A stretch of 64,000 bases of DNA from a virus: positions 20,543 to 84,542 of the IMG/VR virus record IMGVR_UViG_3300032561_000012. One strand, written 5' to 3'. Under the pieces are notes generated by a model. That model saw nothing but the letters and a program-made list of their open reading frames with translations. It was not told the origin of the DNA and made no database searches. Every line of letters starts with the position of its first letter. The stretch's first letter is position 1. Shown piece by piece: positions 1 through 43,850 of this stretch. A program made the translations under genes and the position numbers.

Positions 1-676
1 CTGAGCCTACATTGTTTAGATCACTACGGAAATAACTAGCCGCTGGATATGCGCCTAGATAGCTAGCATTATTAGCTGTGCCATAGATAGTATAACTACT
101 ATTCATGTTATAGCCAGCTTGGATAACTGTATTAAAACCTGAGATAGGTGTAGCTAACGTAAATGTTGCTGAGCTAATAATTGCAGTGCGAGTACCATCT
201 AAGTAAATTGATACCACATCGTGTGGATTACTACCAGTATCAAGTAATTGTTCCCATACTGCACCACTACCGTTGCGTTGTGGGCCTACTAAGACCCAAC
301 TGGTGCTGCCAAGACAAACATAAAGTTGGTTGTATGTGGTATCTAGATAAAAGCTACCTGCTACTGCTGAAATTGTAGGAACACCGCTTGATGATCCAGT
401 AATTGCTGTGCCTACAGGTACCCATGCATTGGATCCGTTGTAGACATACATTACGTTGCTGGTTGAATTGTACCACAGTTGTCCCACTTGCGGACTTGTT
501 GGACTTGTGCTATTGGAAAAGTTTACCAATAGTGCCAATTGATCAGTGACCATGATCTGGCCATAGTTACTGTAGTTACGTCCCACCAGCGTCAAGCTAG
601 TAGTGGTATTGTCTACGGTACCATCTGCAATAGTGCCTAGCGTTTGTCCATTGGGTAGTGTTATATTGTACGACAT
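1..676 (-). CDS. Baseplate/tail-fibre-like virion protein, 3' part runs off the window (not in ORF track)
   Basis: ATG at 676 after AGGA. Reads MSYNITLPNGQTLGTIADGTVDNTTTSLTLVGRNYSNYGQ...NFSNSTSPTSPQVGQLWYNS, an N-terminus typical of virion proteins in large T4-like phages. Confidence 0.75.
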   Translation of the reverse strand, partial: MSYNITLPNGQTLGTIADGTVDNTTTSLTLVGRNYSNYGQIMVTDQLALLVNFSNSTSPTSPQVGQLWYNSTSNVMYVYNGSNAWVPVGTAITGSSSGVPTISAVAGSFYLDTTYNQLYVCLGSTSWVLVGPQRNGSGAVWEQLLDTGSNPHDVVSIYLDGTRTAIISSATFTLATPISGFNTVIQAGYNMNSSYTIYGTANNASYLGAYPAASYFRSDLNNVGS

Positions 677-689
677 TTTATTATCCTAG

Positions 690-2647: not shown

Positions 2648-5600
2648 TTATGTCTCAGTGTAAATTGTTACATTGCCTTCAGTGGCTATCATCATATTTA
2701 TCGCATTTTCAGTTGTTATAGCATTATTCATTCCTGGAATTATATTGCTATAAGTTGCTGGGTATGCCTTCATAACGTTTGCAGCCAATGTATCGCTGCC
2801 ATTCAACCCTGTACCATCTAGGGCTGTACCAGTACCGTTGTTGTAGAATACATTAGCATAGGTAATTAGATTACCGTAAGTGGTATTTGGTATTATTTGA
2901 CTAGCACTAGCATCAAACGCACTAGCACCAGCAAGGTGTGTAGCAGCCGCTGTGCCTTGTGTACCTCTACGTATTTGTCCTAGAGTATTTGTTACTACGT
3001 TAGCAGTCCAGTAAGTAATACGTTCAGCGTCAATGAATATCACACCAGGTTTTAAATTAACTGGGTCTGGCATAGTCAGTGCAGCCGCGTTAGCAACAAA
3101 AATATTGCCGTCTGTTAGGCCTAAACTATGTGTTAGTACAGTTGTGTTGGCGCTGCTGATACGTAGATAACTAGGTTTGTTAATCATGTTATCAAATATT
3201 CTATAGCCTAAAGTAACATTAGCACCATTTACAGTTACATTTGAAGTATAGATACGCATGTCTAATGTGTCAAATGTAATACCTGGCACTAGTTCTTCTG
3301 GAGCATGGCTATAGTATCTGTCAATATATTGTCCGCCACTTAGAACGATCTCTTCTGGTGTATTACCAGCCAGTTCCTCTGTGACATAGTTACTTTGATA
3401 GATTGTATCTAGAACATTAGTTGACAGTAAAGGTATACCGTCTTGGCTGTATTGTACGCTGTCATAACTGCTAAGGTCCCATGTGCGACCAAATCCTGGA
3501 CTTAGATCAAATCCTGCGCCAACCACTGGGCTACTTGGATATGTAATACCAGTTAGCAGTTGATCTAATGCATTGTATGTTGCTGTAATAGTAGTATCTG
3601 TAGCCAAGCTGACGTTGACACTTAGTGAAATTTGTGTTACACTAGTAATAACATTGCTCAAGTTAATTGTAACATTAGAAACTATGTTAGTAATGTATCC
3701 TGCTGTGACATTAGCACCACTGATAGTCATACCTTTTAATAGGTTACTTGCTGGGAACACATAGATAGTATTTGCACTTACCGCTGCATTAGCTACAGTA
3801 ATTGGCACTGTAATTGTGTCAACCACTGGCATTACATTGCTAGGTTCATAGTAACCTACAATACGATCACTGGCATTAGTAAACAGGTTAGCCGCATATA
3901 CTGTATAATCGCCTGAGAAGAATGTTCCAGATGTAATTATATTTGATTTAACCTGATATGCTTGACGTACTAGTACATTACCTTCAGGTTGTGCATAGGT
4001 TACAATTTGTCCTGCAATGTAATTGGTATATGGTTGCCATTGCTGAACTGTACTTGAATATGTAGTACGGTCAAATTTGATTGCTGTGTCAAAAGTTCTA
4101 ACCAATGGGTAAGCATTACCAGTTAGTAACGGTGTGTTGTTAGTGAATGGCAATTTAACCAATTGTGCATAAGCAGTAGCTGACACACTTGAGGTACCGT
4201 TAATAGTAACCACAGGTGTGGTAATATATCCGCTACCTGGGTTAGTAACTGTGATACTAACCACAGTTAAATTAGCATTACCAGTAACCGGTCCGCTCAT
4301 AACTGCGGTAGCAGTTGCTCCTGATCCTTTACCGTCAACACTTGAAATAGTTACCTGAGGAACAAAACTATAGTTTGCTCCTGTTGTTTCTACTATAACT
4401 GCACCGACCTGTAGTGTACGGTTATCGTACCATTGATTATAAGGGAATGTCTGCCAGGTAGCTTCATCTTCGCTGGTGTATGGTACTTCGCCGCTTGGAC
4501 TACGGAATATGCCGTAGCCTGTGCTGGTGTCATAGTATGCTGGCAAATCAAAGTCAGTAACACTACCACTATAAGTATCGTTGCCGGTGTAGTCAATTAA
4601 GTATTCACGTACTTTAGTTCTATATGGTTTTACTTCGTTAATATAGTCTTGATAGTAGGTTTGATTATCAACAATATAACTTGGGAATTGGCTTAGTGTA
4701 CGCAATTTGTGTGTTACACTGATAAAACTTGATTTAAATAGCCAATCAACATAGTTTTGTTCTGTTAGCAAGTAGTTTACTAAGATAAAGAACAAGTTAT
4801 TAAATTCACCTTGTAATTGGTCAATAAAGATATCATTGTTCAGCGCCTGTACAATAGCACGAATTTCATTGTTAGGGTCTTGGTCAAATCTGCTACTGTC
4901 AAAGTCTTGATTACCAAAACCTAAGGCATTATTAACAAAGTCACCAAGGCTGGTATTTAATTGTATAGTACCGTTTTGAATACCAACTACTTGGAATGTG
5001 CCATCAGTATTAACAACAAACAATCTCCAAGTACCATTACCAGTGGCATCACTTACATAGATGATTTCACCAGCCGCTGGTTTCAATGCCAAAGCATCAT
5101 TGGTTGTCATTACAGAAAAATTAGGTTTAGTTGCTGCACTATATCCTGTAGCATACCAATCAGTGTAGGTCCAATACAAGCTAGTCTTGTAGGCCTGTAC
5201 TTGTTCAATCTGCCAAAGTTTATCGGCAGTTAATACATACAACACCCAAAGACCGTTTTGTGTACTGTCGCTGGTCACTAATACCAGATAGCCCGGTGCT
5301 AATGACATAGTATCAATATAATTTAATTCTTCAACTGTTGATACACTTTGATCGTATGCACCCAATTTGTAATCAGGTTGCGGATCTTCTGCATACATGC
5401 CTGCTAGACTGTATTGTTCAACAATAGGATTAGCAATTAAAATACTATTTGCATACTGTACCATTTCTACCACAGCGGTTAGTCTGCCTTTGAACATACT
5501 TTGTCTTGGGCGTATGTCAATACCATAACGATCAGCGTCGCTGAGTGTTGGATCAGGTACTGTTTGACCAATGCTGTCTAATCCAGCCAAACTGTCAACT

Positions 5601-8600
5601 AGTTTATTGACAATTTTTACAGGTATTGGGTCACTAGGATTACCTTTTTGTACTAGTTCGTATTCGCTGTGTATCATATCACTGTTGATCAACAGTTGAT
5701 AGTCTAAGTGCATGATGGTATTGTCAGCTGACAAGTACGATCCTACATTGTAGAATGCAATGGCCTGCGGACTGATTACCGCTGCATAAGCTAGGCCTTG
5801 ATTCTTAGGATTCTGTATATAGTCTGCTATCACACTAGTAGGCAAATGTCTAGTAGGATTATTAGGATCTACAGTAGTTTTGCCTGTGACCCAATAATAG
5901 TAGTTAGTAGTGATAATATTTGTAGTTGGATCTACATAGGTAATCTCTACATAAGCACTGTTATCAGCATATTTAGGTTGACCGTCGCCACCGTTAGCCA
6001 CGTACTGACTTGGTAGGTAGATACTCTTTACCCACTCACAAACTTCAATAACAGCACCTGGGAATAAATTACCCCAATTGATACTACGATATGTTATTTT
6101 ATCATTGAGGTTAGTATCTTGTTCATAGTCTATGTAGCGAACTTGACTTAGGTTCCACCAAACTCGCCCAACTTGTAGATCACCCCAGTAGACATTTGAA
6201 TTGATGTCTGCATTGGCATTAGTACCTACATTGTATTGTGCAGGATCATATTCTGTCTTGTAACTGATTTCTTGCTCAGCTTCGCCTAGTATACGACCTT
6301 TAGCTGGATCAATGAATTGTAGATCATCAATAATTGTATTGGTTAGATTATTGTATAGATATGCTCTGGTTAAACTGTCTGGATCAACTTTAGCCTGTTG
6401 ATATCTAATCAATCCCCAACCGCGAGCCAGCGTTGGGTTTTCAAATATGTACACAGCGCCTGTGCCGCTAGGTTCACCATTGACTGTAGCACCTGGTGCC
6501 GAAACAACAACAAAGGTTTCTTTAACATCAAGAGAGTAACCAAACTCTGCACCTGATGCTAATAGTCCTGGATCTAGGTTTTGACAGTATTGATATCTAC
6601 CTGGAGTATATACGTCATCGCGCGGATCATCGTACAGTTCATAAATGTAAGTACTACCACTGCCAGGAATACTGTCAAACCATTTGGTTGTGGTACGATC
6701 AAATGTAGTACTGTTAGTAGTAGTAGCAACATCAAATGTAGTGTATCTATGTGTAGTACCACGTGCCGCACCAATAACCAACATGTAGGCATTTTGTGCA
6801 ATCTTAACTTGGCTACCAAAGTATTCGCCAGGTTGACCAAATGGATTAACAATAATCTGCATGAATGCGAATAGTCTAAGGTCAGCATCAGCATATACAC
6901 CTGGACTACCAGGAGTACGTATACCTGACAGAATACGCAGTTGGTCTTTAGCTACAGTAACATCTGAGTTTAAGCGCAATAGACCATTTTGATTGACCGC
7001 ACTAACACCTAAGATTTGTGCATCGTTAACATCTTTAACAATACTGTCTAAGCTGGCCATTGGGTAAGCTGTGGTTGTAATTGATGTGTTAGCCCAGATG
7101 TGGCTGTTATTATTCCATACTGGATTTACAATAGCAACAACATTAGCACCTGTTGAACTTTGGCCATAGTTGAATAAGATATTACCAGTGTAGTTTGTAA
7201 CTGTGACAAATTGACTATTGGTTACGTTGGCCAATACTACTACATTAGCATAAACTCCACTGCCTTGATTTTGACTGATGGTCTGACCAGCCACGGCTGT
7301 GATATTACTGCTGAGTGCTAGTATATTAGCCGCCTGTCCGTTATAGGTCGTTGGCATCATACGTGCTGATACAATAACTTCAAAGTTTTGTAAACGTATA
7401 CTATCGCCAGGTGTGAATACTGGATTTACAGCATAGCCAGTGTTGGTACCGTATAAGCGACCTCTGTTATGGAATTTCCAAATAGCACCACTGTTGTATT
7501 CTGTACCATTGGCATAGTAAGGGGCACCTGTATAGATTGCACAGTTAATACCGCAAACTGTTAGACTGGTACCAAATGCTGCACCTGCTTGTAAGGCTGT
7601 TAGAGTATTTTCTAAGCTGTCAACTCCAATTAATCTTTCTAATAGATTAAAGTCATTGACTTCAATGTATAACACATGACCTACTTCTGGTGGGTCAATA
7701 AATTCAATAGTATAAGTACCTGTTACTGTGTAGTTAGTAACTTCATTACCGTCAATAGTTACTTTATAAACTGGACCAATTGGATTTCTAGTTGTGTAGA
7801 TTAATCCACCTGTGGTTTTAAATGCTTCTATCACACGATCGTAGATGTAAATACAACCTGCACCTACTAGTAGATTGCCACCTTCGCCTGCTACAGTATC
7901 ACCAGGTGCACCAATAGCAATCTGTGCGCCATCAAAGCTAGCTGACAGTGAGTGACCAAAATTAGCAAAGGTATTTGCTGGATTTGGATTTTGAATATTC
8001 TTAACTAGTTTATAGTAAGGTTGTTGCACAATACTGATGTCACTTTGTACTACATTTGCAGTAAAGTAAACTGTACTACCACTTAAGGTATAGTCTTGGT
8101 TAGGAATATATGTTTTGTTACTGCTGGTAATTAATAGCGATGTAGCATCGTTAGCGGCATACGGAGTAAATGTCAACGGAATACTATTAGTAACACTGGC
8201 ATTTACAACATTAGTTACATAAACTCCTGCATCAACACTTTGAATGCTGATATTGCCAGCTACATAGGTGTTGCCAATTAAGACATTAGAGCCTATGGCA
8301 AAATTGCTAACTAAATTTGTCAATACAACTACACTAGAATTACTTACTGTTGCAGCCAATGAGCCTTGTGCGCCTGACACTGATTGGTTAATCAATTGAG
8401 TAGCTGTTGCTGAAATATTACCGCTGAGAGTTAGGGTAACTTGATCTTTAACTGACACTGTTTGTTGTTGGAATGGAACAAAACGACTTAGGCCGTAGGC
8501 ATAAACATTGTTGTTACCTGCCGCTCCCACGTATAACCATTCACCGTCTTGATTAAACTGTATGCTAGACCCAAACAAATCACCTACATTGCCACCTACT

Positions 8601-28270: not shown

Positions 28271-30043
28271 TTGTTTAAAATCAAATATCTAACTGTTAAA
28301 AACTTTATGAGTGTAGGTAACGCTACACAGGCTGTTAACTTTGACCGCAGAGACTTAACCTTAGTCTTAGGTGAAAACGTTGACCTAGGTGGTGATGACA
28401 CAGGTGCACGTAATGGTACAGGTAAAACTACTATTATCAACGCACTGAGTTATGCTCTATACGGACAAGCACTGACTAACATTCGTAAAGACAATCTAGT
28501 TAATAAAACCAATCAAAAGGCCATGCTGGTTACTATTGACTTTGAAGTTAATGGTGTTGAATATAGAATTGAGCGTGGTCGCAAATCTAATGTACTTAAA
28601 TTCTATATTGGTGATCAAGAACAAGAAGCCAAGGACGATAACAGTCAAGGTGACAGCAGAGAAACACAGCAAGAAATAGAACGTTTATTAGGCATGAGTC
28701 ACGAGATGTTCAAGCACGTGGTTGCATTGAACACCTACACTGAGCCATTTTTAGCACTAAAATCAAATGATCAACGTGCTATCATCGAACAACTGCTAGG
28801 TATTACCTTATTGAGTGAAAAAGCAGAAGCACTCAAAGAGCAAAGTAAGGCCACAAGGGACGCCATTCAGCAGGAAGAAGCCAACATCAAAGCTGTGTCT
28901 GATGCTAATAAACGTATTGAAGAGCAGATTGAAGCGGCACAGCGTCGTCAGATGCTATGGTTAACTAAACACAAAGATGATGTTCGTAAACTACAAGAAG
29001 CACTTGACGAATTGCAAAAACTAGATATCGATGCAGAGATTCAAGCACATAAAGAACTGTCAGCGTACAATCAAAAAAGCAAAGACATTGCTGATTTAAA
29101 CACTGCTATTCAACGATCTACACAGGATCTACAGCGCGAAGTCAAAGGCATTGCTAACTTAACCAGTGATATAGAAACTCTTCGTGATCACAAGTGTAAT
29201 ACCTGCGGTCAGGATCTGCATGATGAAAAACATGCAGAATTGTTGTCTATCAAAGAAAGCAAACTACGTGATGCTGAGTTACAACAGAATACACATGCTA
29301 GTCAATTAGAAGAACTAATTGCAGCCAAAGCATCTATAGGTGAGCTAGGTGTTAAACCTACCACATTCTATGATACTGAAGCAGATGCTATTCAACATCG
29401 TAGCAGTGTTGCTGGATTACAGCAACAGTTAGCTGCTAAGTCAAAAGAAGAAGATCCTTATACAGAGCAGATTGCAGACATGAAAACCACTGCCCTGGCT
29501 GAGATTGACTATTCTATGATGAATGAACTGACTCGCCTTAAAGAACATCAAGAGTTCTTACACAAACTATTAACTAACAAAGATTCTTATATACGTAAAC
29601 GTATTATTGATCAAAATTTAAGCTACCTAAACGCAAGATTAAGTCAATACCTAGATCGTATTGGTTTACCGCATACTGTGGTGTTTATGAACGACCTAAG
29701 CGTTAATATTACAGAACTAGGTCGTGAACTAGACTTTGATAACCTAAGTCGTGGTGAACGCAATAGACTTATCCTTAGCTTGTCGTGGGCATTCCGTGAT
29801 GTATGGGAAAGTTTATATCAACCAATTAACTTGTTGTTTATTGATGAATTAGTAGACAGCGGCATGGATGCATCAGGTGTAGAAAATGCCTTGGCTATTC
29901 TTAAAAAGATGTCGCGTGATGCACACAAATCAATTTGGTTAGTAAGTCATAGAGATGAACTAGGCGGGCGTGTAAACAACATCCTTACAGTGGTAAAAGA
30001 AAATGGCTTTACCAGTTATAACACTGATGTTGAGATTGCATAG
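28271..30043 (+). CDS. gp46: Recombination ATPase subunit (Rad50/SbcC-like)
   Basis: Walker A NGTGKTT, coiled coil with CNTC zinc hook, LSRGE signature and Walker B LLFIDE. Confidence 0.92.
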   Translation: MFKIKYLTVKNFMSVGNATQAVNFDRRDLTLVLGENVDLGGDDTGARNGTGKTTIINALSYALYGQALTNIRKDNLVNKTNQKAMLVTIDFEVNGVEYRIERGRKSNVLKFYIGDQEQEAKDDNSQGDSRETQQEIERLLGMSHEMFKHVVALNTYTEPFLALKSNDQRAIIEQLLGITLLSEKAEALKEQSKATRDAIQQEEANIKAVSDANKRIEEQIEAAQRRQMLWLTKHKDDVRKLQEALDELQKLDIDAEIQAHKELSAYNQKSKDIADLNTAIQRSTQDLQREVKGIANLTSDIETLRDHKCNTCGQDLHDEKHAELLSIKESKLRDAELQQNTHASQLEELIAAKASIGELGVKPTTFYDTEADAIQHRSSVAGLQQQLAAKSKEEDPYTEQIADMKTTALAEIDYSMMNELTRLKEHQEFLHKLLTNKDSYIRKRIIDQNLSYLNARLSQYLDRIGLPHTVVFMNDLSVNITELGRELDFDNLSRGERNRLILSLSWAFRDVWESLYQPINLLFIDELVDSGMDASGVENALAILKKMSRDAHKSIWLVSHRDELGGRVNNILTVVKENGFTSYNTDVEIA

Positions 30044-31263: not shown

Positions 31264-31443
31264 ATGGCAACATTACATGAACAAATTTTAGAAGCAATTG
31301 AAACATACAAAGCAGAATCAGAAAAGTTTGACGGTAAGGGTGTTAAAGCCGCTGCCGCACGTGCTCGTGGTGCATTAGGTGACTTAGGCAAACTAGCCAA
31401 AGCTCGTCGTGCAGAAATCCAAGAGAAGAAAAACAGTTTATAA
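31264..31443 (+). CDS. Histone H1-like Hc1-family protein, 59 aa (not in ORF track)
   Basis: AAGGA RBS; MATLHEQILEAIETYKAESEKFDGKGVKAAAARARGALGDLGKLAKARRAEIQEKKNSL has the KF..KG.KAA..RAR..L pattern of the Hc1 family. Confidence 0.8.
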   Translation: MATLHEQILEAIETYKAESEKFDGKGVKAAAARARGALGDLGKLAKARRAEIQEKKNSL

Positions 31444-32148
31444 TTGAAAAAGATTTTATACATCAACGGAGACAGTTATTCTGCACCAACTGAGTATGGG
31501 ATGTATGGCAATGTTTTATCACATCAATATAATATTGGGTTAGTAAACAAAGCTGTCATTGGTAGTTCAAACCACAGAATAATTCGATCTACTCTAGAAG
31601 ATTGTATAAAATTTAAAAGACAAAATATAAACGTATATGTGATCATTGGCTTATCATTTTTCACACGTGAAGAAATATGGGCTAACACAGATAATGAATT
31701 TGTTAAAAGACTTAACGAATGCCCTGAAGGAAAATTTGTTACTTTAGACTCAGTTCGTAAAGAAGATTTAACTATTTTTGATAAACGACGATTAGTTGAT
31801 TTAAATATTAATGTGCAGGTTGTACAATTACTTGTTAATATTTTTATGTTAACTAACACATTAACTTTATTAAATATTCCTCATTTTATTTTTTCTGCGG
31901 CGCATAATCAGCCCAACAGTGAATTAAAATGGGGATATTTAAATCAATTAGAAGTTTATCAAGATATTAAAAAAAGAAAGAATATTTTAGATATTTTTAA
32001 TTTCAGTATCCCAACCTGGGCTAAAGAAAATAATGTAGATACTTCTGATACTGGGCATTTAGTGAGTATTGGCACACATAAAATATTTGCTGATTATCTC
32101 TATGATAATCATCTATCAAAATTAAATTGGGACATCAATGATGTATGA
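31444..32148 (+). CDS. SGNH/GDSL-like hypothetical protein
   Basis: NGDSYS near the N-terminus, GSSN, and DTGH near the C-terminus; very AT-rich. Confidence 0.55.
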   Translation: MKKILYINGDSYSAPTEYGMYGNVLSHQYNIGLVNKAVIGSSNHRIIRSTLEDCIKFKRQNINVYVIIGLSFFTREEIWANTDNEFVKRLNECPEGKFVTLDSVRKEDLTIFDKRRLVDLNINVQVVQLLVNIFMLTNTLTLLNIPHFIFSAAHNQPNSELKWGYLNQLEVYQDIKKRKNILDIFNFSIPTWAKENNVDTSDTGHLVSIGTHKIFADYLYDNHLSKLNWDINDV

Positions 32149-32572
32149 ATATCCGTGGACTTACAATGGAAAAATATTTGAGTCTGAGGATATCAACAAC
32201 TATTATGGCTTTATATATAGGATAACTAATACTGTTAACGGGCATGATTATGTTGGCAGAAAATACTTCAAAACCATCAAAAAGAGACCACCTCTAAAAG
32301 GCAAGAAAAACAAACGTAGGGAAACAGTTGAAACTGATTGGAAAACTTACTGGGGCAGTAGTCCTAGACTCCAAGCAGATATAGACAAACTAGGCCGGGA
32401 CAAGTTCACACGTGAAATCATACATCTATGTGAGTCACGTGGCGAAACTAATTACTTGGAAGCCTATTATCAGTTTAAGGAAAATGTATTGTTACGTGAA
32501 AACAACTACAATGGCATTATTCAAGTTAGACTAGGTAAGAATTCCGTTAAAGATTTAAAGATTACAAAATAA
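32141..32572 (+). CDS. Minimal GIY-YIG endonuclease (Seg-like)
   Basis: GFIYRITN...YVGRK, YWGSS, conserved E and YN; no C-terminal DNA-binding extension. Confidence 0.85.
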   Translation: MYEYPWTYNGKIFESEDINNYYGFIYRITNTVNGHDYVGRKYFKTIKKRPPLKGKKNKRRETVETDWKTYWGSSPRLQADIDKLGRDKFTREIIHLCESRGETNYLEAYYQFKENVLLRENNYNGIIQVRLGKNSVKDLKITK

Positions 32573-33018
32573 CAGCCCTTTTGCAGATTAAGTTCTGTGT
32601 CATGAGGAGATGGTGCTCGCGTAATGGCCGCACTTGGAACGTCTAGAGTAGACTAGACACATGACGGCACGGCAATCAATTAGGTGTAAAAACCAAAAGA
32701 TTCAGGCTCTGAAACAACTCAACCTGAGAGCAAAACAACAGTTGGCTAACTACGGCTGTTTGAGCTACCGCCAGAGAAATCTAGAGTAGGGAGTACAGGC
32801 TGACCGCTTCCGTGCTGATGATAGCAATCTCTTTTAGTTAGTGTGCGAGTAGGACTCAGATAAAGCTCTCGTTGCAATTTGCCTGTAATAGGTAAATTGT
32901 GACTGAAGGATCTAGATAAAGCATTTAAGAACGTACAATAGTTCAATATATCTTAGATTAAAGAGATTAGAAGAAAAAGCATTGAGCGCAAGCGAAAATG
33001 CAGATGTCGTAGACATCT
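32573..33018 (+). ncRNA. Putative large structured non-coding RNA of unknown class
   Basis: About 450 nt with no credible ORF in a gene-dense genome. Many nested stems, several needing G-U pairs on the + strand. Confidence 0.5.
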
Positions 33019-33194
33019 TAAAAGAATGGAAACTTACTCTTTTTAGTTGTTTCTAAGTTATCTTTGATTATCTCACCAATAATGTCTCTTTCTGATTTAC
33101 TTAACAGCATAGATTCATCATAGCTAAGACCACCACGCATGTACCAACACATTCTTAAGGCGTCTTCTTTAAAGGCTCTTACCTCTTTGTCCAT
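33018..33194 (-). CDS. gp51: Baseplate hub assembly protein gp51-like (not in ORF track); frame open upstream to the slippery site
   Basis: MDKEVRAFKEDALRMCWYMRGGLSYDESMLLSKSERDIIGEIIKDNLETTKKSKFPFF*, directly downstream of the gp26-like gene. Confidence 0.7.
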   Translation of the reverse strand: MDKEVRAFKEDALRMCWYMRGGLSYDESMLLSKSERDIIGEIIKDNLETTKKSKFPFF

Positions 33195-33232
33195 CTTTTC
33201 TAACTGCTGGACAATTTCTTCGTTACTTAGAG

Positions 33233-34081
33233 CTAAGAGCCTAGACCGAAAAAATTTGCGTAGTCAAACGTAACTTCTGTTTTATATTCATGCTGACATT
33301 CGTCACAGACATTATCATATGGTTTAAGACCAGCAGTACTGGCAATCTCAGCTAGTTTTTCCTGTACTTTGCGTACCGTTGCACTGCTGGTGCTAGAATA
33401 AAACTCTCTAATAAACCCGCTGTCAACTACCTTGGTTCCATCACTCATTAGAATATATTCTGTGCTGGCTGTTAGGTTGTCTAGATTTAATTCAATTAGT
33501 TCTTCTGTAATGGCCTTAAGGTTAGCATCACGGTCTTCTTTGCTGATTTCATTTTCGCCTTGAGCTAGAACATTTAAAATACGTTGTTCTTTATATGTGA
33601 TGCTGTTGGCGTTGTTGACTGCAAAATAGTTCTGTGGTTTAAGTTTGATAGTCAAATCAGGTTCTTGAATCAAATTATCAAAGTTTGGCATGGTGATTTG
33701 ATCCAGGGCCGCGTTAAGATTAACAGTATGATCATTAGTGTGTTTGCACTTAGGACAACTGGTATTGATGTCCATATCACTGCCATAACTGGCAATACGT
33801 ATAGCAATCAAACAAGCATCAACGTCTACACTAGGCATAGCCCACGGGTCTTGAATACTAGGAATACAGCTTTTGACTACTTCTACAATGGCTGATCCGT
33901 TGATTAAACTATCTGGTGTACGCAGGGTAATTTCATCTTTGGTAGTCATAGGGTACACAGGCAGTTCACCTGTAGCACTGAGTGTTAGTGCGCCCTCAGG
34001 CCAATATTTGCCCTTACTAGGTAACTTTAAAAAGATCGCAGGTTGGCGAAAATGCTTGGCTAAAGGATTAGTTTGATTCAT
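33233..34081 (-). CDS. gp26: Baseplate hub subunit/tail assembly chaperone, gp26-like
   Basis: LPSKG, PMTTKDE, DACLIAIRIASYG, two CxxC motifs and a terminal NFF. Start taken as ATG 34081. Confidence 0.8.
   Translation of the reverse strand: MNQTNPLAKHFRQPAIFLKLPSKGKYWPEGALTLSATGELPVYPMTTKDEITLRTPDSLINGSAIVEVVKSCIPSIQDPWAMPSVDVDACLIAIRIASYGSDMDINTSCPKCKHTNDHTVNLNAALDQITMPNFDNLIQEPDLTIKLKPQNYFAVNNANSITYKEQRILNVLAQGENEISKEDRDANLKAITEELIELNLDNLTASTEYILMSDGTKVVDSGFIREFYSSTSSATVRKVQEKLAEIASTAGLKPYDNVCDECQHEYKTEVTFDYANFFGLGS
33248..33257 (-). promoter_or_regulatory. Putative -1 ribosomal frameshift site (A AAT TTT TTC)
   Basis: Two overlapping X XXY YYZ heptamers in the gp26 frame; the -1 frame is open into the gp51-like ORF. 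Confidence 0.65.
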
Positions 34082-34095
34082 GGTGATTTTTTCCA

Positions 34096-34126
34096 ATAAA
34101 TATATGATATACTACGTAATATTTAG
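34096..34126. promoter_or_regulatory. Opposed late promoters (ATAAATA on + at 34096-34102; CTAAATA on - at 34120-34126)
   Basis: Both lie in the 70-nt gap between the divergent gp26 and tape measure genes. Confidence 0.55.
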
Positions 34127-43340: not shown

Positions 43341-43418
43341 TACTTGTTCACTCAGACAAGAGAGTTTATGCAGCCCCACTGCGTAGGCCTAGAACGCCAT
43401 TTATAAAGGAGAAAACAA

Positions 43419-43850
43419 ATGGGACGTCCAATTAAATTAACACAAAGCAGTTCAATTGACAAAGGTTACAACACTGGCTACGGTGGCACTATTGGTGCTG
43501 GCCATGCCATTACAAGCGTTTATACTATTGCTTTCAATTACAAAACAGCTGGTAATGTATTAGTCACAAATGGTTATGCATCAACACAAAAAGGCGCACA
43601 AAAGTTTACAGTTGCTAACGCGGCTGGCGGACAAACTACATCAGTTTATCTAGTAAACCCAACAAGTGGTTTTGCAAATATGGCTGCTAACACAGCGGCA
43701 GTATTATGCTATAACACAAGTAATGTAGCTTTCTATGCTAAACGTATTACAGACCATTGGGTTAAAGACTGGAATGGTAACAGATATGTTTACAAATCTG
43801 GACTTAACGTAGTAGCAACAGCTAACTGGGCAAACGTTGCAACAAACTAA
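43419..43850 (+). CDS. Virion structural protein (possible head decoration)
   Basis: MGRPIK start; monocistronic late unit with strong RBS and its own terminator. Confidence 0.55.
   Translation: MGRPIKLTQSSSIDKGYNTGYGGTIGAGHAITSVYTIAFNYKTAGNVLVTNGYASTQKGAQKFTVANAAGGQTTSVYLVNPTSGFANMAANTAAVLCYNTSNVAFYAKRITDHWVKDWNGNRYVYKSGLNVVATANWANVATN

What the first reader, a model, noticed from the sequence alone, without database searches (positions are those of the whole stretch)
32141..33018. Minimal GIY-YIG nuclease followed by about 450 nt of highly structured non-coding sequence
Seen: this is the longest non-coding stretch in the window and starts right after the GIY-YIG stop. Pairings include gtcatg 32599/catgac 32660; gtctag 32641/ctagac 32653; long-range ggcacgg 32666/ccgtgct 32810; tcagg 32702/cctga 32723; aacagttg 32737/cggctgtt 32753; gcaatttgcct 32874/aggtaaattgt 32890; gcatt 32979/aatgc 32997 around a GCAA loop; and agatgtc/gacatct 33002-33018. 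Short repeats are tctagagtag (32642, 32780) and agataaagc (32858, 32914). G-U pairs favour a + strand RNA. The nuclease is catalytic domain only, with a basic KKRPPLKGKKNKRR loop. Inference: an undescribed large phage ncRNA, possibly a ribonucleoprotein partner of the nuclease, by analogy with nuclease-associated HEARO/omega RNAs. A replication-origin role is an alternative.
Basis: partly seen in the sequence, partly recalled or inferred. Interest (0 to 1): 0.78.

Follow-up and report, generated by a model that had tools for sequence, protein, structure and literature searches.

The report
Large knotted twin-box phage RNA
The gene-free 445 bases behind a small nuclease gene of this uncultured giant lake phage encode a real, intricately knotted non-coding RNA whose job is unknown, which is related to a little-known catalogued RNA motif and carries one short word twice, always identical within a genome.

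Summary
Window 32573-33018 (+) encodes a conserved structured RNA. Alone it folds no better than shuffles (z -1.55). Across relatives, 36 of 56 tested core pairs and 20 of 38 pairs in the 5' domain and 3' hairpins show changes on both sides, and 0 of 500 shuffles reach the observed covariation score. It has two pseudoknots: an H-type knot, and an 8-bp pairing of a hairpin loop with a downstream strand. Two 7-nt boxes (RGATRAW, 32858-64 and 32914-20) are identical to each other in 97 of 97 distinct RNAs, although all 8 possible words occur.

Rfam does not hit the window. In other lineages, the same slot (gp46, Hc1-like gene, nuclease, RNA, then convergent gp51/gp26) holds an RNA with a homologous 3' core. 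The 5' third of that RNA is Rfam Polynucleobacter-1 (87-101 bits).

A nuclease gene lies upstream in 172 of 172 loci with enough sequence. It is either GIY-YIG or an unrelated PDDEXK_15, independent of the RNA's 5'-domain type. No nuclease column tracks the boxes, and the basic loop also occurs in homologues that lack the RNA. I read it as an RNA in its own right, function unknown, not a nuclease guide. This scan has reached the same reading on many other genomes.

The parts
32138..32572 (+). Stand-alone GIY-YIG nuclease gene (144 aa, catalytic domain only). Its stop codon lies 10 nt before the first RNA helix.
   Evidence: Pfam PF19835 at 3.7e-38 and PHROG 447. The predicted model is closest to the I-TevI catalytic domain (Foldseek prob 1.00, E 0.028).
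32573..33018 (+). The whole conserved non-coding unit (about 445 nt). The true 5' and 3' ends are unknown.
   Evidence: 68-89% nt identity in relatives, no conserved ORF, covariation.
32583..32665 (+). 5' domain, specific to this lineage: hairpin H1 (32583-87/32594-98), then helix H2 (32599-604/32660-65) enclosing hairpins H3 (32612-16/32630-34) and H4 (32641-46/32653-58), joined by invariant purine-rich linkers.
   Evidence: pairs with changes on both sides are 5 of 6 in H2, 5 of 5 in H3 and 5 of 6 in H4; 98-100% of cells are paired. Other lineages carry different 5' domains.
32683..32694 (+). Small hairpin H5 (GGU/ACC) with a conserved A-rich loop.
   Evidence: helix 5: 100% paired, 1 of 3 pairs covaries.
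32702..32727 (+). Hairpin H6 (32702-06/32723-27, with inner pairs 32710-11/32720-21).
   Evidence: helices 1-2: 5 of 7 pairs change on both sides; 92-97% paired.
32737..32760 (+). Hairpin H7. Its loop (32745-52) is the 5' strand of pseudoknot PK2.
   Evidence: The stem is 75% paired in the wide alignment, where divergent groups are misaligned, and 8 of 8 pairs vary on both sides.
32835..32842 (+). 3' strand of pseudoknot PK2. It pairs with the H7 loop.
   Evidence: helix 4: 8 of 8 pairs change on both sides; 96.6% paired across 56 diverse RNAs. An unbiased scan found it independently.
32770..32811 (+). H-type pseudoknot: S1 (32770-74/32800-04) crosses S2 (32789-94/32806-11). This is the most conserved block of the RNA.
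   Evidence: helices 5 and 7: 3 of 5 and 3 of 6 pairs covary. S2 is 99.4% paired. One S1 position is C-A in 27 of 56 rows, this window included.
32813..32826 (+). Hairpin H8.
   Evidence: helices 8-9.
32781..32785 (+). 5' strand of a tentative long-range helix with 32911-15, which would close the 3' domain.
   Evidence: 94% paired but nearly invariant; 1 of 5 pairs covaries. A four-pair exchange in the Polynucleobacter-1 group was read by eye. Other pairings of the several AUCU and AGAU segments are possible.
32845..32872 (+). Irregular hairpin that presents box 1 (32858-64) in its apical part.
   Evidence: Box 1 is enclosed by a stem in the MFE fold of 90 of 93 homologues, and is at least 75% unpaired in 46 of 93.
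32858..32864 (+). Twin box 1 (here AGATAAA; family form RGATRAW).
   Evidence: Identical to box 2 in 97 of 97 distinct RNAs; all 8 words occur.
32872..32902 (+). Long hairpin P-j between the two boxes.
   Evidence: helix 10: 6 of 13 pairs covary; 93.8% paired.
32914..32920 (+). Twin box 2 (AGATAAA).
   Evidence: There is no third copy and no complement in the 84.5-kb record.
32922..32978 (+). A+T-rich linker, variable in length and sequence.
   Evidence: Alignment A1 columns 405-500.
32979..33001 (+). 3' hairpin A: a variable outer stem around an invariant GAGC-GNRA-GCGA core.
   Evidence: It is kept even where the gp51-like gene lies more than 1.4 kb away, so it belongs to the RNA.
33002..33018 (+). 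3' hairpin B, followed by a short U run; a possible + strand terminator. It overlaps the stop codon of the gp51-like gene on the other strand.
   Evidence: The stem covaries across groups. The consensus terminator scan does not call it.
33018..34096 (-). Convergent late genes: gp51-like ORF (33018-33194) and gp26-like baseplate hub (33233-34096). These are context, not part of the RNA.
   Evidence: Pfam T4_baseplate and PHROG 150. Synteny holds in all loci that reach far enough.

Best explanation
Window 32573-33018 (+) encodes a structured non-coding RNA of about 445 nt from an uncultured giant T4-type lake phage. SHOWN: it folds into at least eleven covarying helices with two pseudoknots. It is transcribed from the + strand. 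It begins within about 10-30 nt of the stop codon of whatever gene precedes it. It shares its 3' core of about 300 nt with RNAs whose 5' third is Rfam Polynucleobacter-1. It carries two 7-nt boxes that stay identical to each other while the word itself changes quickly. INFERRED: it is made as the 3' end of the gp47/gp46/Hc1/nuclease transcript and is probably released from it. It acts as a folded RNA in its own right. The knotted core serves as a rigid scaffold that presents the two boxes to one sequence-reading partner, either a two-site or dimeric factor or a short nucleic acid, that co-evolves with the word. The neighbouring nuclease is a conserved neighbour with a DNA-metabolism role, not the RNA's partner. 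My odds: real structured RNA 0.97; related to Polynucleobacter-1 RNAs 0.85; scaffold-for-a-box-reader mechanism about 0.35.
For: Covariation in the core: 91.9% of cells are paired, against 78.3% when shuffled and 32-45% when slid. 36 of 56 pairs change on both sides. The score is 0.407 against 0.168, reached by 0 of 500 shuffles. In the 5' domain and 3' hairpins, 97.5% of cells are paired and 20 of 38 pairs change on both sides, again 0 of 500. PK2 covaries at 8 of 8 pairs. No ORF is conserved. Invariant G-U pairs fix the strand. The upstream ORF ends 186-231 nt before the core motif in 11 of 11 loci of varied gene content, where the RNA starts at about -200. No promoter-like site lies just upstream. 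Polynucleobacter-1 scores 87-101 bits in L206, L207, L208 and L211, and 38-39 bits in L095, L139 and L169, all in the same synteny and followed by a homologous core. The boxes are identical in 97 of 97 RNAs and all 8 words occur. 33 of 110 RNA pairs that are at least 95% identical nearby differ in their word. Box 1 sits at the top of a hairpin in 90 of 93 folds. The nuclease type is swapped independently of the RNA type.
Against: There is no expression data: no RNA run was listed. The ends, the processing and the stability of the RNA are therefore inferred. No reader was found. No column of GIY-YIG, Hc1, gp51, gp46 or gp26 comes near 1 bit of association with the boxes (top 0.17-0.58). No third copy or complement of the word occurs in the 84.5-kb record, though that record is only about 24% of the genome. 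A nuclease gene lies upstream in 172 of 172 loci, so a functional link is not excluded. Box identity could also come from gene conversion or from a DNA-level role such as iteron-like sites. The long-range helix and the context of box 2 are poorly resolved.
Confidence: 0.55

Rival explanations
1. A cis-acting 3' UTR element. The fold protects the upstream early or middle mRNA from 3' exonucleases, or it insulates and terminates transcription between the convergent early and late operons. It has no function in trans.
For: It always abuts the end of the upstream ORF. It usually sits where + and - strand operons meet. It ends in two hairpins.
Against: About 445 nt with two pseudoknots, invariant junctions and twin boxes is far more than stabilisation or termination needs. 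In L135 a 687-aa same-strand gene follows the RNA. The terminator scan calls nothing here.
Confidence: 0.13
2. A ribozyme. For example, it might cut itself out of the polycistronic transcript at its 5' boundary, or carry out some other catalysis. The knotted core would be the active site.
For: The complexity, the pseudoknots and the invariant unpaired nucleotides resemble large ribozymes. The RNA starts right after a stop codon. Both nuclease folds found next to it are known from intron-encoded homing enzymes: I-TevI and I-Ssp6803I (Z 4.3).
Against: No Rfam ribozyme or intron family matches, even at E<=10. There are no flanking exons. The order of helices does not fit a group I core, judged by my own reading against recalled group I topology.
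Confidence: 0.1
3. A replication-origin or other DNA-level element. The transcript would prime synthesis through an R-loop in the A+T-rich linker, and the twin boxes would be iteron-like protein sites on the DNA.
For: Identical direct repeats that change together are typical of iterons. An A+T-rich, variable stretch follows the fold. The site adjoins the recombination and replication genes gp46/gp47.
Against: The compensatory changes and invariant G-U pairs show selection on RNA folding. There are only two boxes, 56 nt apart, and one sits in an RNA hairpin loop. Nothing here tests replication.
Confidence: 0.1
4. A nuclease cofactor. The RNA binds the catalytic-domain-only nuclease and aims, activates or restrains it, with the twin boxes acting as a re-programmable specificity element.
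For: A stand-alone nuclease domain with no DNA-binding domain lies upstream in 172 of 172 loci (98 distinct RNAs). The boxes behave like a programmable word.
Against: GIY-YIG and PDDEXK_15 are unrelated folds, and they are exchanged without regard to the RNA subtype. Other genes, such as radical SAM enzymes, can lie between the nuclease and the RNA: 48 + 1 of 172 loci exceed the distance cut-off, a count that also includes Polynucleobacter-1-type loci whose longer 5' domain pushes the nuclease further off. The same GIY-YIG family, with the same basic loop, occurs in isolates without the RNA. The top association of a GIY column with a box position is 0.40 bit, against about 1 bit of box entropy. 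80 of the loci were fetched using the nuclease itself, which biases the linkage count.
Confidence: 0.07

Closest known systems
Polynucleobacter-1 RNA motif (Rfam RF01718; Weinberg et al. 2010, PMC2864571; I saw only its table row through a term search)
   Same: Bona fide RF01718 matches (87-101 bits) sit in the same slot of related phages: gp47, gp46, Hc1, GIY-YIG, RNA, then convergent gp51 and gp26. They continue into a 3' core that aligns with this window's H-type knot, PK2, P-j hairpin, twin boxes and 3' hairpins. Function is unknown in both cases.
   Different: RF01718 models only 141 nt. The window's own 5' domain gives no RF01718 hit at E<=10, and the roughly 300-nt core is not catalogued. 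Rfam and the paper list the motif for Burkholderiales and fresh water. My two exact-pattern scans of 185,579 species' genomes found no copy.
GOLLD and ROOL large ornate RNAs (Rfam; cryo-EM preprint 10.1101/2024.12.08.627333, seen as search listing and abstract only)
   Same: They are large, intricately folded RNAs of unknown function, often carried by phages.
   Different: There is no sequence or structure-model match. This RNA is much smaller. It is not next to tRNA genes: ARAGORN finds none in the window. Nothing here shows multimerisation.
OMEGA/HEARO guide RNAs of IscB, IsrB and TnpB nucleases
   Same: A structured RNA with a pseudoknot is encoded directly beside a compact nuclease gene.
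   Different: The nuclease is GIY-YIG or PDDEXK_15, not the RuvC/HNH type. There is no HEARO match. There is no terminal variable guide and no transposon context. The nuclease type is interchangeable.
T4 segB, a free-standing GIY-YIG homing endonuclease within the tRNA gene cluster (recalled, not read here)
   Same: A Seg/Tev-type GIY-YIG gene lies beside stable-RNA genes in a T4-type phage.
   Different: Here the nuclease lacks a DNA-binding domain, is present in every locus rather than sporadically, and is as conserved as gp46 (median 84% against 77% aa identity).

Membership tests
Polynucleobacter-1 RNA (RF01718) | Covariance-model score at or above the gathering score of 37 bits | tested here: not met
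   The window gives no hit at gathering or at E<=10 over 32000-33300. Relatives L206, L207, L208 and L211 score 87-101 bits; L095, L139 and L169 score 38-39 bits.
Polynucleobacter-1 RNA (RF01718) | Same genomic slot as true members and a homologous continuation beyond them | tested here: met
   Synteny, an aligned 3' core with shared helices, and covariation counted on an alignment that includes three such RNAs.
Polynucleobacter-1 RNA (RF01718) | Architecture of the 141-nt motif: three hairpins, then a helix enclosing two hairpins | tested here: inconclusive
   The window has one hairpin and then a helix enclosing two hairpins. Homology of the parts is not shown.
Group I intron | Rfam RF00028 match and flanking exons that can be joined | tested here: not met
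   No match at E<=10. The upstream ORF ends at its own stop codon 10 nt before the RNA, and the downstream sequence is non-coding.
OMEGA/HEARO guide RNA | An adjacent IscB, IsrB or TnpB nuclease and a model match | tested here: not met
   Pfam finds only SegE_GIY-YIG. No HEARO hit.
OMEGA/HEARO guide RNA | A hypervariable guide segment at one end of the RNA | tested here: not met
   The variable parts are two internal 7-nt boxes with only 8 words, and an A+T-rich linker.
GOLLD / ROOL | Rfam model match | tested here: not met
Seg-type free-standing homing endonuclease (for the nuclease gene) | GIY-YIG catalytic domain of the Seg/Tev type | tested here: met
   PF19835 at 3.7e-38. The model is closest to the I-TevI catalytic domain.
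Seg-type free-standing homing endonuclease (for the nuclease gene) | A C-terminal DNA-binding domain, and sporadic presence among related genomes | tested here: not met
   The protein is 144 aa, and the domain covers residues 7-124. A nuclease gene is present in 172 of 172 loci.
Holliday-junction resolvase (for the PDDEXK_15 alternative) | Hjc/Hje-like minimal PD-(D/E)XK fold | tested here: inconclusive
   The best matches are Hje and Hjc: Z 6.3 (rmsd 3.9, 109 aligned) and Z 5.8 (rmsd 4.0, 109 aligned), and Foldseek E 0.04. This is below the level at which the tool's note advises trust.
Intrinsic terminator (3' hairpin B) | G+C-rich hairpin followed by a run of at least 5 T in 8 | tested here: not met
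   The scan reports no site in 32573-33020 on either strand. The hairpin with its 2-4 U was read by eye.

The most novel reading that the evidence does not exclude
The knotted RNA is a programmable recognition device. Its two identical, fast-changing 7-nt boxes would read a matching nucleic-acid word, in the phage, a competitor or the host. The interchangeable stand-alone nuclease always encoded upstream (GIY-YIG or PD-(D/E)XK) would be the effector it recruits. That would be an RNA-directed nuclease system built on folds never known to be RNA-guided.
Probability: 0.07. Interest if true: 0.95.

Novelty: new variant of a known kind. Interest (0 to 1): 0.72.

Why it matters
Large RNAs with several pseudoknots and invariant junctions are rare, and most known ones are ribozymes or cores of major ribonucleoproteins. 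It is among the best conserved sequences of its region, and only a third of it, in other lineages, is catalogued. Its twin boxes give a concrete experimental handle. Two sites must stay identical while the word is free to change, which points to an unknown sequence-specific reader.

Tried and rejected
- Single-sequence folding is not significant on either strand.
- Rfam, whole window at gathering and 32000-33300 at E<=10, gives nothing in the stretch. ARAGORN finds no tRNA or tmRNA.
- blastn of the stretch and of 6 kb around it against 50,697 phage records finds no useful match.
- I thought some blocks resembled ribosomal RNA, from memory. No rRNA family appeared at E<=10, and I dropped the idea without a direct alignment.
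- A group I intron reading was rejected: no exons and no model match.
- Long-range pairing 32666/32810 was rejected (see the observation check).
- Search for a cis partner of the boxes: no other column of the RNA reaches 0.7 bit with them. No complement or third copy occurs in the window or the 84.5-kb record. My first pattern was mis-specified and says nothing.
- Search for a protein reader among the neighbours: no strong column. This screen is not corrected for phylogeny.
- A peak of similarity centred on the nuclease, as homing would leave, was not seen. gp46 is 77%, Hc1 77% and GIY 84% identical in amino acids, the RNA 81% in nucleotides; the drop comes only in the late genes gp51 (65%), gp26 (46%) and gp29 (30%).
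- Syntenic regions of jumbo phages PA5oct and Atu_ph07 hold no core motif with up to 6 substitutions.
- Exact-pattern scans of genome contigs, for the core and for the Polynucleobacter-1 block, found 0. These patterns are strict, so divergent bacterial copies are not excluded.
- PDB sequence searches with both nucleases found nothing.
- RNA runs: no RNA holder was listed, and read laying was not used.
- Literature: four searches (and a term search inside PMC2864571) found no description of the full RNA. 'Polynucleobacter-1' occurs in 1 paper of the library. The supplements of that paper, which may describe the motif's context, are closed.
Full report
WHAT IS THERE. The window comes from an 84.5-kb virus record estimated at 24% complete. 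Its portal protein is 49% identical to those of the jumbo phages Atu_ph07 and PA5oct. Around the finding, the + strand carries a gp46-like recombination nuclease subunit (28271-30043), a radical SAM gene, small ORFs, an Hc1 histone-like gene (31264-31443), a DUF6071-like gene, and a 144-aa GIY-YIG gene (32138-32572). The - strand carries a 58-aa gp51-like ORF (33018-33194) and a gp26-like baseplate hub (33233-34096). Between them lie 445 nt with no conserved ORF and a raised G+C content. This is the longest internal ORF-free gap of the window.

IS IT MORE THAN CHANCE. Not from this sequence alone. The minimum free energy gives z = -1.55 on the + strand and -1.23 on the - strand, and 9 of 100 shuffles fold as well. 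Comparison with relatives settles the matter. A search with the nuclease protein found 221 relatives in IMG/VR, of which the best 80 were kept. blastn against these loci and the seven showed the non-coding stretch at 68-89% identity in nearly all of them.

On 48 distinct close homologues, RNAalifold predicted 72 pairs, 28 of them with compensatory changes.

I fixed a structure by hand and counted it.
- In the 5' domain and the 3' hairpins, 97.5% of cells are paired. 20 of 38 pairs change on both sides. The covariation score is 0.342 against 0.109 in shuffles, reached by 0 of 500. Slid controls give 25-44% paired.
- In the core, on 56 diverse RNAs from all subtypes, 91.9% of cells are paired. 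36 of 56 pairs change on both sides. The score is 0.407 against 0.168, reached by 0 of 500. Slid controls give 32-45% paired.

The tool warns that shuffles ignore relatedness. The slid controls do not, and they agree. Two G-U pairs that never change (53 of 56 and 56 of 56 rows) would be C-A on the other strand, so the RNA is read from the + strand.

ANATOMY.
- 5' domain (32583-32665): a hairpin, then a helix enclosing two hairpins, joined by invariant purine-rich linkers.
- Two small hairpins, H5 and H6.
- Hairpin H7. Its 8-nt loop (32745-52) pairs with 32835-42. All 8 pairs of this pseudoknot change on both sides, and it is 96.6% paired. An unbiased scan of all column pairs ranked it third.
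- An H-type pseudoknot (32770-74/32800-04 crossing 32789-94/32806-11) inside the most conserved block.
- Hairpin H8.
- An irregular hairpin that presents box 1.
- The long hairpin P-j.
- Box 2.
- An A+T-rich variable linker.
- Two 3' hairpins. The first has an invariant GAGC-GNRA-GCGA core. The second is followed by a short U run.

The 3' hairpins are kept even where the gp51-like gene is more than 1.4 kb away, so they belong to the RNA. A long-range helix, 32781-85/32911-15, is plausible but nearly invariant. Several AUCU and AGAU segments could pair in other ways.

THE TWIN BOXES. In 93 distinct sequences, 32858 and 32914 are A:A in 44 and G:G in 49, with no exception. 32862/32918 and 32864/32920 behave alike, with 2 and 1 exceptions that stem from divergent rows. 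With a direct pattern, 97 of 102 distinct RNAs have both boxes in the form RGATRAW, and the two 7-mers are identical in 97 of 97. The other five carry other words or altered flanks; in the two I read (L095, L169) the word is again the same in both boxes.

All 8 possible words occur, 5 to 23 times each. Of 110 RNA pairs that are at least 95% identical over the neighbouring 160 nt, 33 differ in their word. Sites 4 nt apart have therefore been reshuffled many times while sites 56 nt apart never parted. Linkage cannot explain that. Identity of the two boxes is itself maintained.

No other column of the RNA tracks the boxes. No third copy or complement lies in the 84.5-kb record. No column of the neighbouring proteins comes close to the roughly 1 bit needed. 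Box 1 sits in the apical part of a hairpin in 90 of 93 folds.

RELATION TO WHAT IS KNOWN. Rfam has nothing for the window. One relative with the canonical core (L095) hit Polynucleobacter-1, RF01718, just upstream of the core. A pattern from that block fetched six more loci. The four I scanned with Rfam (L206, L207, L208, L211) score 87-101 bits. The three whose upstream genes I could read (L206, L208, L211) show gp46 (with gp47 in two), Hc1-like, GIY-YIG and then the RNA; all four show convergent gp51-like and gp26. They continue into a divergent but alignable version of the same core: the H-type knot, the loop-strand knot with fully exchanged letters, P-j, twin boxes with yet another word, the linker and the 3' hairpins.

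The 141-nt Rfam motif is therefore the 5' third of a larger RNA in some lineages. This window belongs to a lineage with a different 5' domain. The only paper in the library that names the motif is its 2010 discovery paper, of which I saw the table row: a probable RNA, probably cis-regulatory, in Burkholderiales and fresh water or estuary. Two strict pattern scans of 185,579 species' genomes found no copy. Syntenic regions of PA5oct and Atu_ph07 hold no core motif.

THE NUCLEASE. Of 194 loci holding the core, 172 have at least 900 nt upstream; these represent 98 distinct RNAs, and several loci are overlapping pieces of one contig. All 172 have a nuclease gene upstream on the same strand: 161 GIY-YIG and 11 PDDEXK_15 (PF24608). 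80 of the loci were fetched using the GIY-YIG protein itself, so only the pattern-derived loci are unbiased.

There are two GIY-YIG subfamilies, about 40% identical to each other, plus the unrelated PDDEXK_15. They do not follow the 5'-domain type. Polynucleobacter-1-type 5' domains occur with GIY-YIG (L206-L211) and with PDDEXK_15 (L095, L169). By my reading of the alignment, the 5' domain of one PDDEXK_15 group resembles that of part of a GIY-YIG group. Radical SAM and other genes can lie between the nuclease and the RNA.

The GIY-YIG family is widespread in T4-type cyanophages, Melnitz and phiM12 (611 records). There it sits in other contexts and is followed by coding genes, yet it carries the same basic loop. 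It is conserved like a core gene: median 84% aa identity, against 77% for gp46. Its model is closest to the I-TevI catalytic domain. The PDDEXK_15 model is closest, weakly, to the archaeal resolvases Hje and Hjc (Z 6.3 and 5.8).

I read the slot as holding a small DNA-metabolism nuclease that has been replaced by an unrelated one, with the RNA as its constant neighbour. A partnership is not excluded, and I give it 0.07.

HOW IT MOST LIKELY WORKS. Shown: the fold, the strand, the position at the end of the upstream ORF whatever that ORF is (11 of 11 loci), the lack of a promoter-like site just upstream, and the twin boxes. Inferred: the RNA is made as the tail of the early or middle recombination-gene transcript, is probably released from it, and serves as a rigid scaffold presenting two identical words to one co-evolving reader. 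I give that mechanism about 0.35. The rivals are a cis-acting UTR element (0.13), a ribozyme (0.10), an origin or iteron element (0.10) and a nuclease cofactor (0.07). The remainder is unassigned.

EARLIER NOTES OF THIS SCAN. My first look-up gave only notes on neighbouring features; from it I took the label 'gp51-like'. After reaching the reading above, I looked the RNA up. Follow-up agents on many other genomes describe the same 'twin-box' relative of Polynucleobacter-1 and also see the nuclease as a neighbour. This is agreement among AI notes, not independent proof. One note reports relatives in E. coli, Salmonella and Klebsiella phages, and another reports Polynucleobacter islands. My limited checks did not find these, but they were strict.

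VERDICT. This is a real, large, doubly knotted phage RNA. It is a new variant of a family of which only a fragment is catalogued. Its function is unknown, and the twin boxes offer a clear experimental handle.

Noticed in passing
window 43347-43421 (+): Rfam freshwater-2 RNA (RF02980), 53.4 bits against a gathering score of 49.9. It is the only Rfam hit in the 64-kb window.
   Followed up: no
window 31264-31443 (+): A 59-aa protein matching the chlamydial histone H1-like Hc1 domain (PF07432, 9.5e-12). It is conserved next to the nuclease in most relatives. A phage nucleoid-condensing protein would be unusual.
   Followed up: partly
window 32843 / 32875 / 32899: G32843 changes in parallel with G32899, and both are complementary to C32875 of the P-j stem (GC 34 / AU 11, and CG 34 / UA 14 of 48). 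This could be an alternative pairing or a base triple. It is unexplained.
   Followed up: partly
L075:3445-4824, L148:920-2263, L016:3436-4599, L135:2603-4663: Radical SAM genes, some with B12-binding or SPASM parts, are inserted between the nuclease and the RNA, or directly after the RNA on the same strand. The region is a hot spot for such genes.
   Followed up: partly
L065:3442-4152: A 237-aa ORF between the GIY-YIG gene and the RNA has a weak NUMOD3 motif (E 9e-4, below the cut-off). It may be a true homing endonuclease.
   Followed up: no
L214 (PA5oct) 5528-6192 and 7042-7539: In the syntenic region of jumbo phage PA5oct, a 664-nt unannotated gap follows the gene next to the baseplate hub, and a RusA-like Holliday-junction resolvase lies beside gp46. 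The gap holds no core motif of this RNA.
   Followed up: partly
window 379-689: A second ORF-free stretch of 311 nt (no ORF of 50 aa or more) near the start of the window.
   Followed up: no
window 32138-32148: The start of the GIY-YIG gene overlaps the stop of the DUF6071-like gene (ATGATG...TGA). In most relatives the Hc1-like gene sits directly upstream instead.
   Followed up: no
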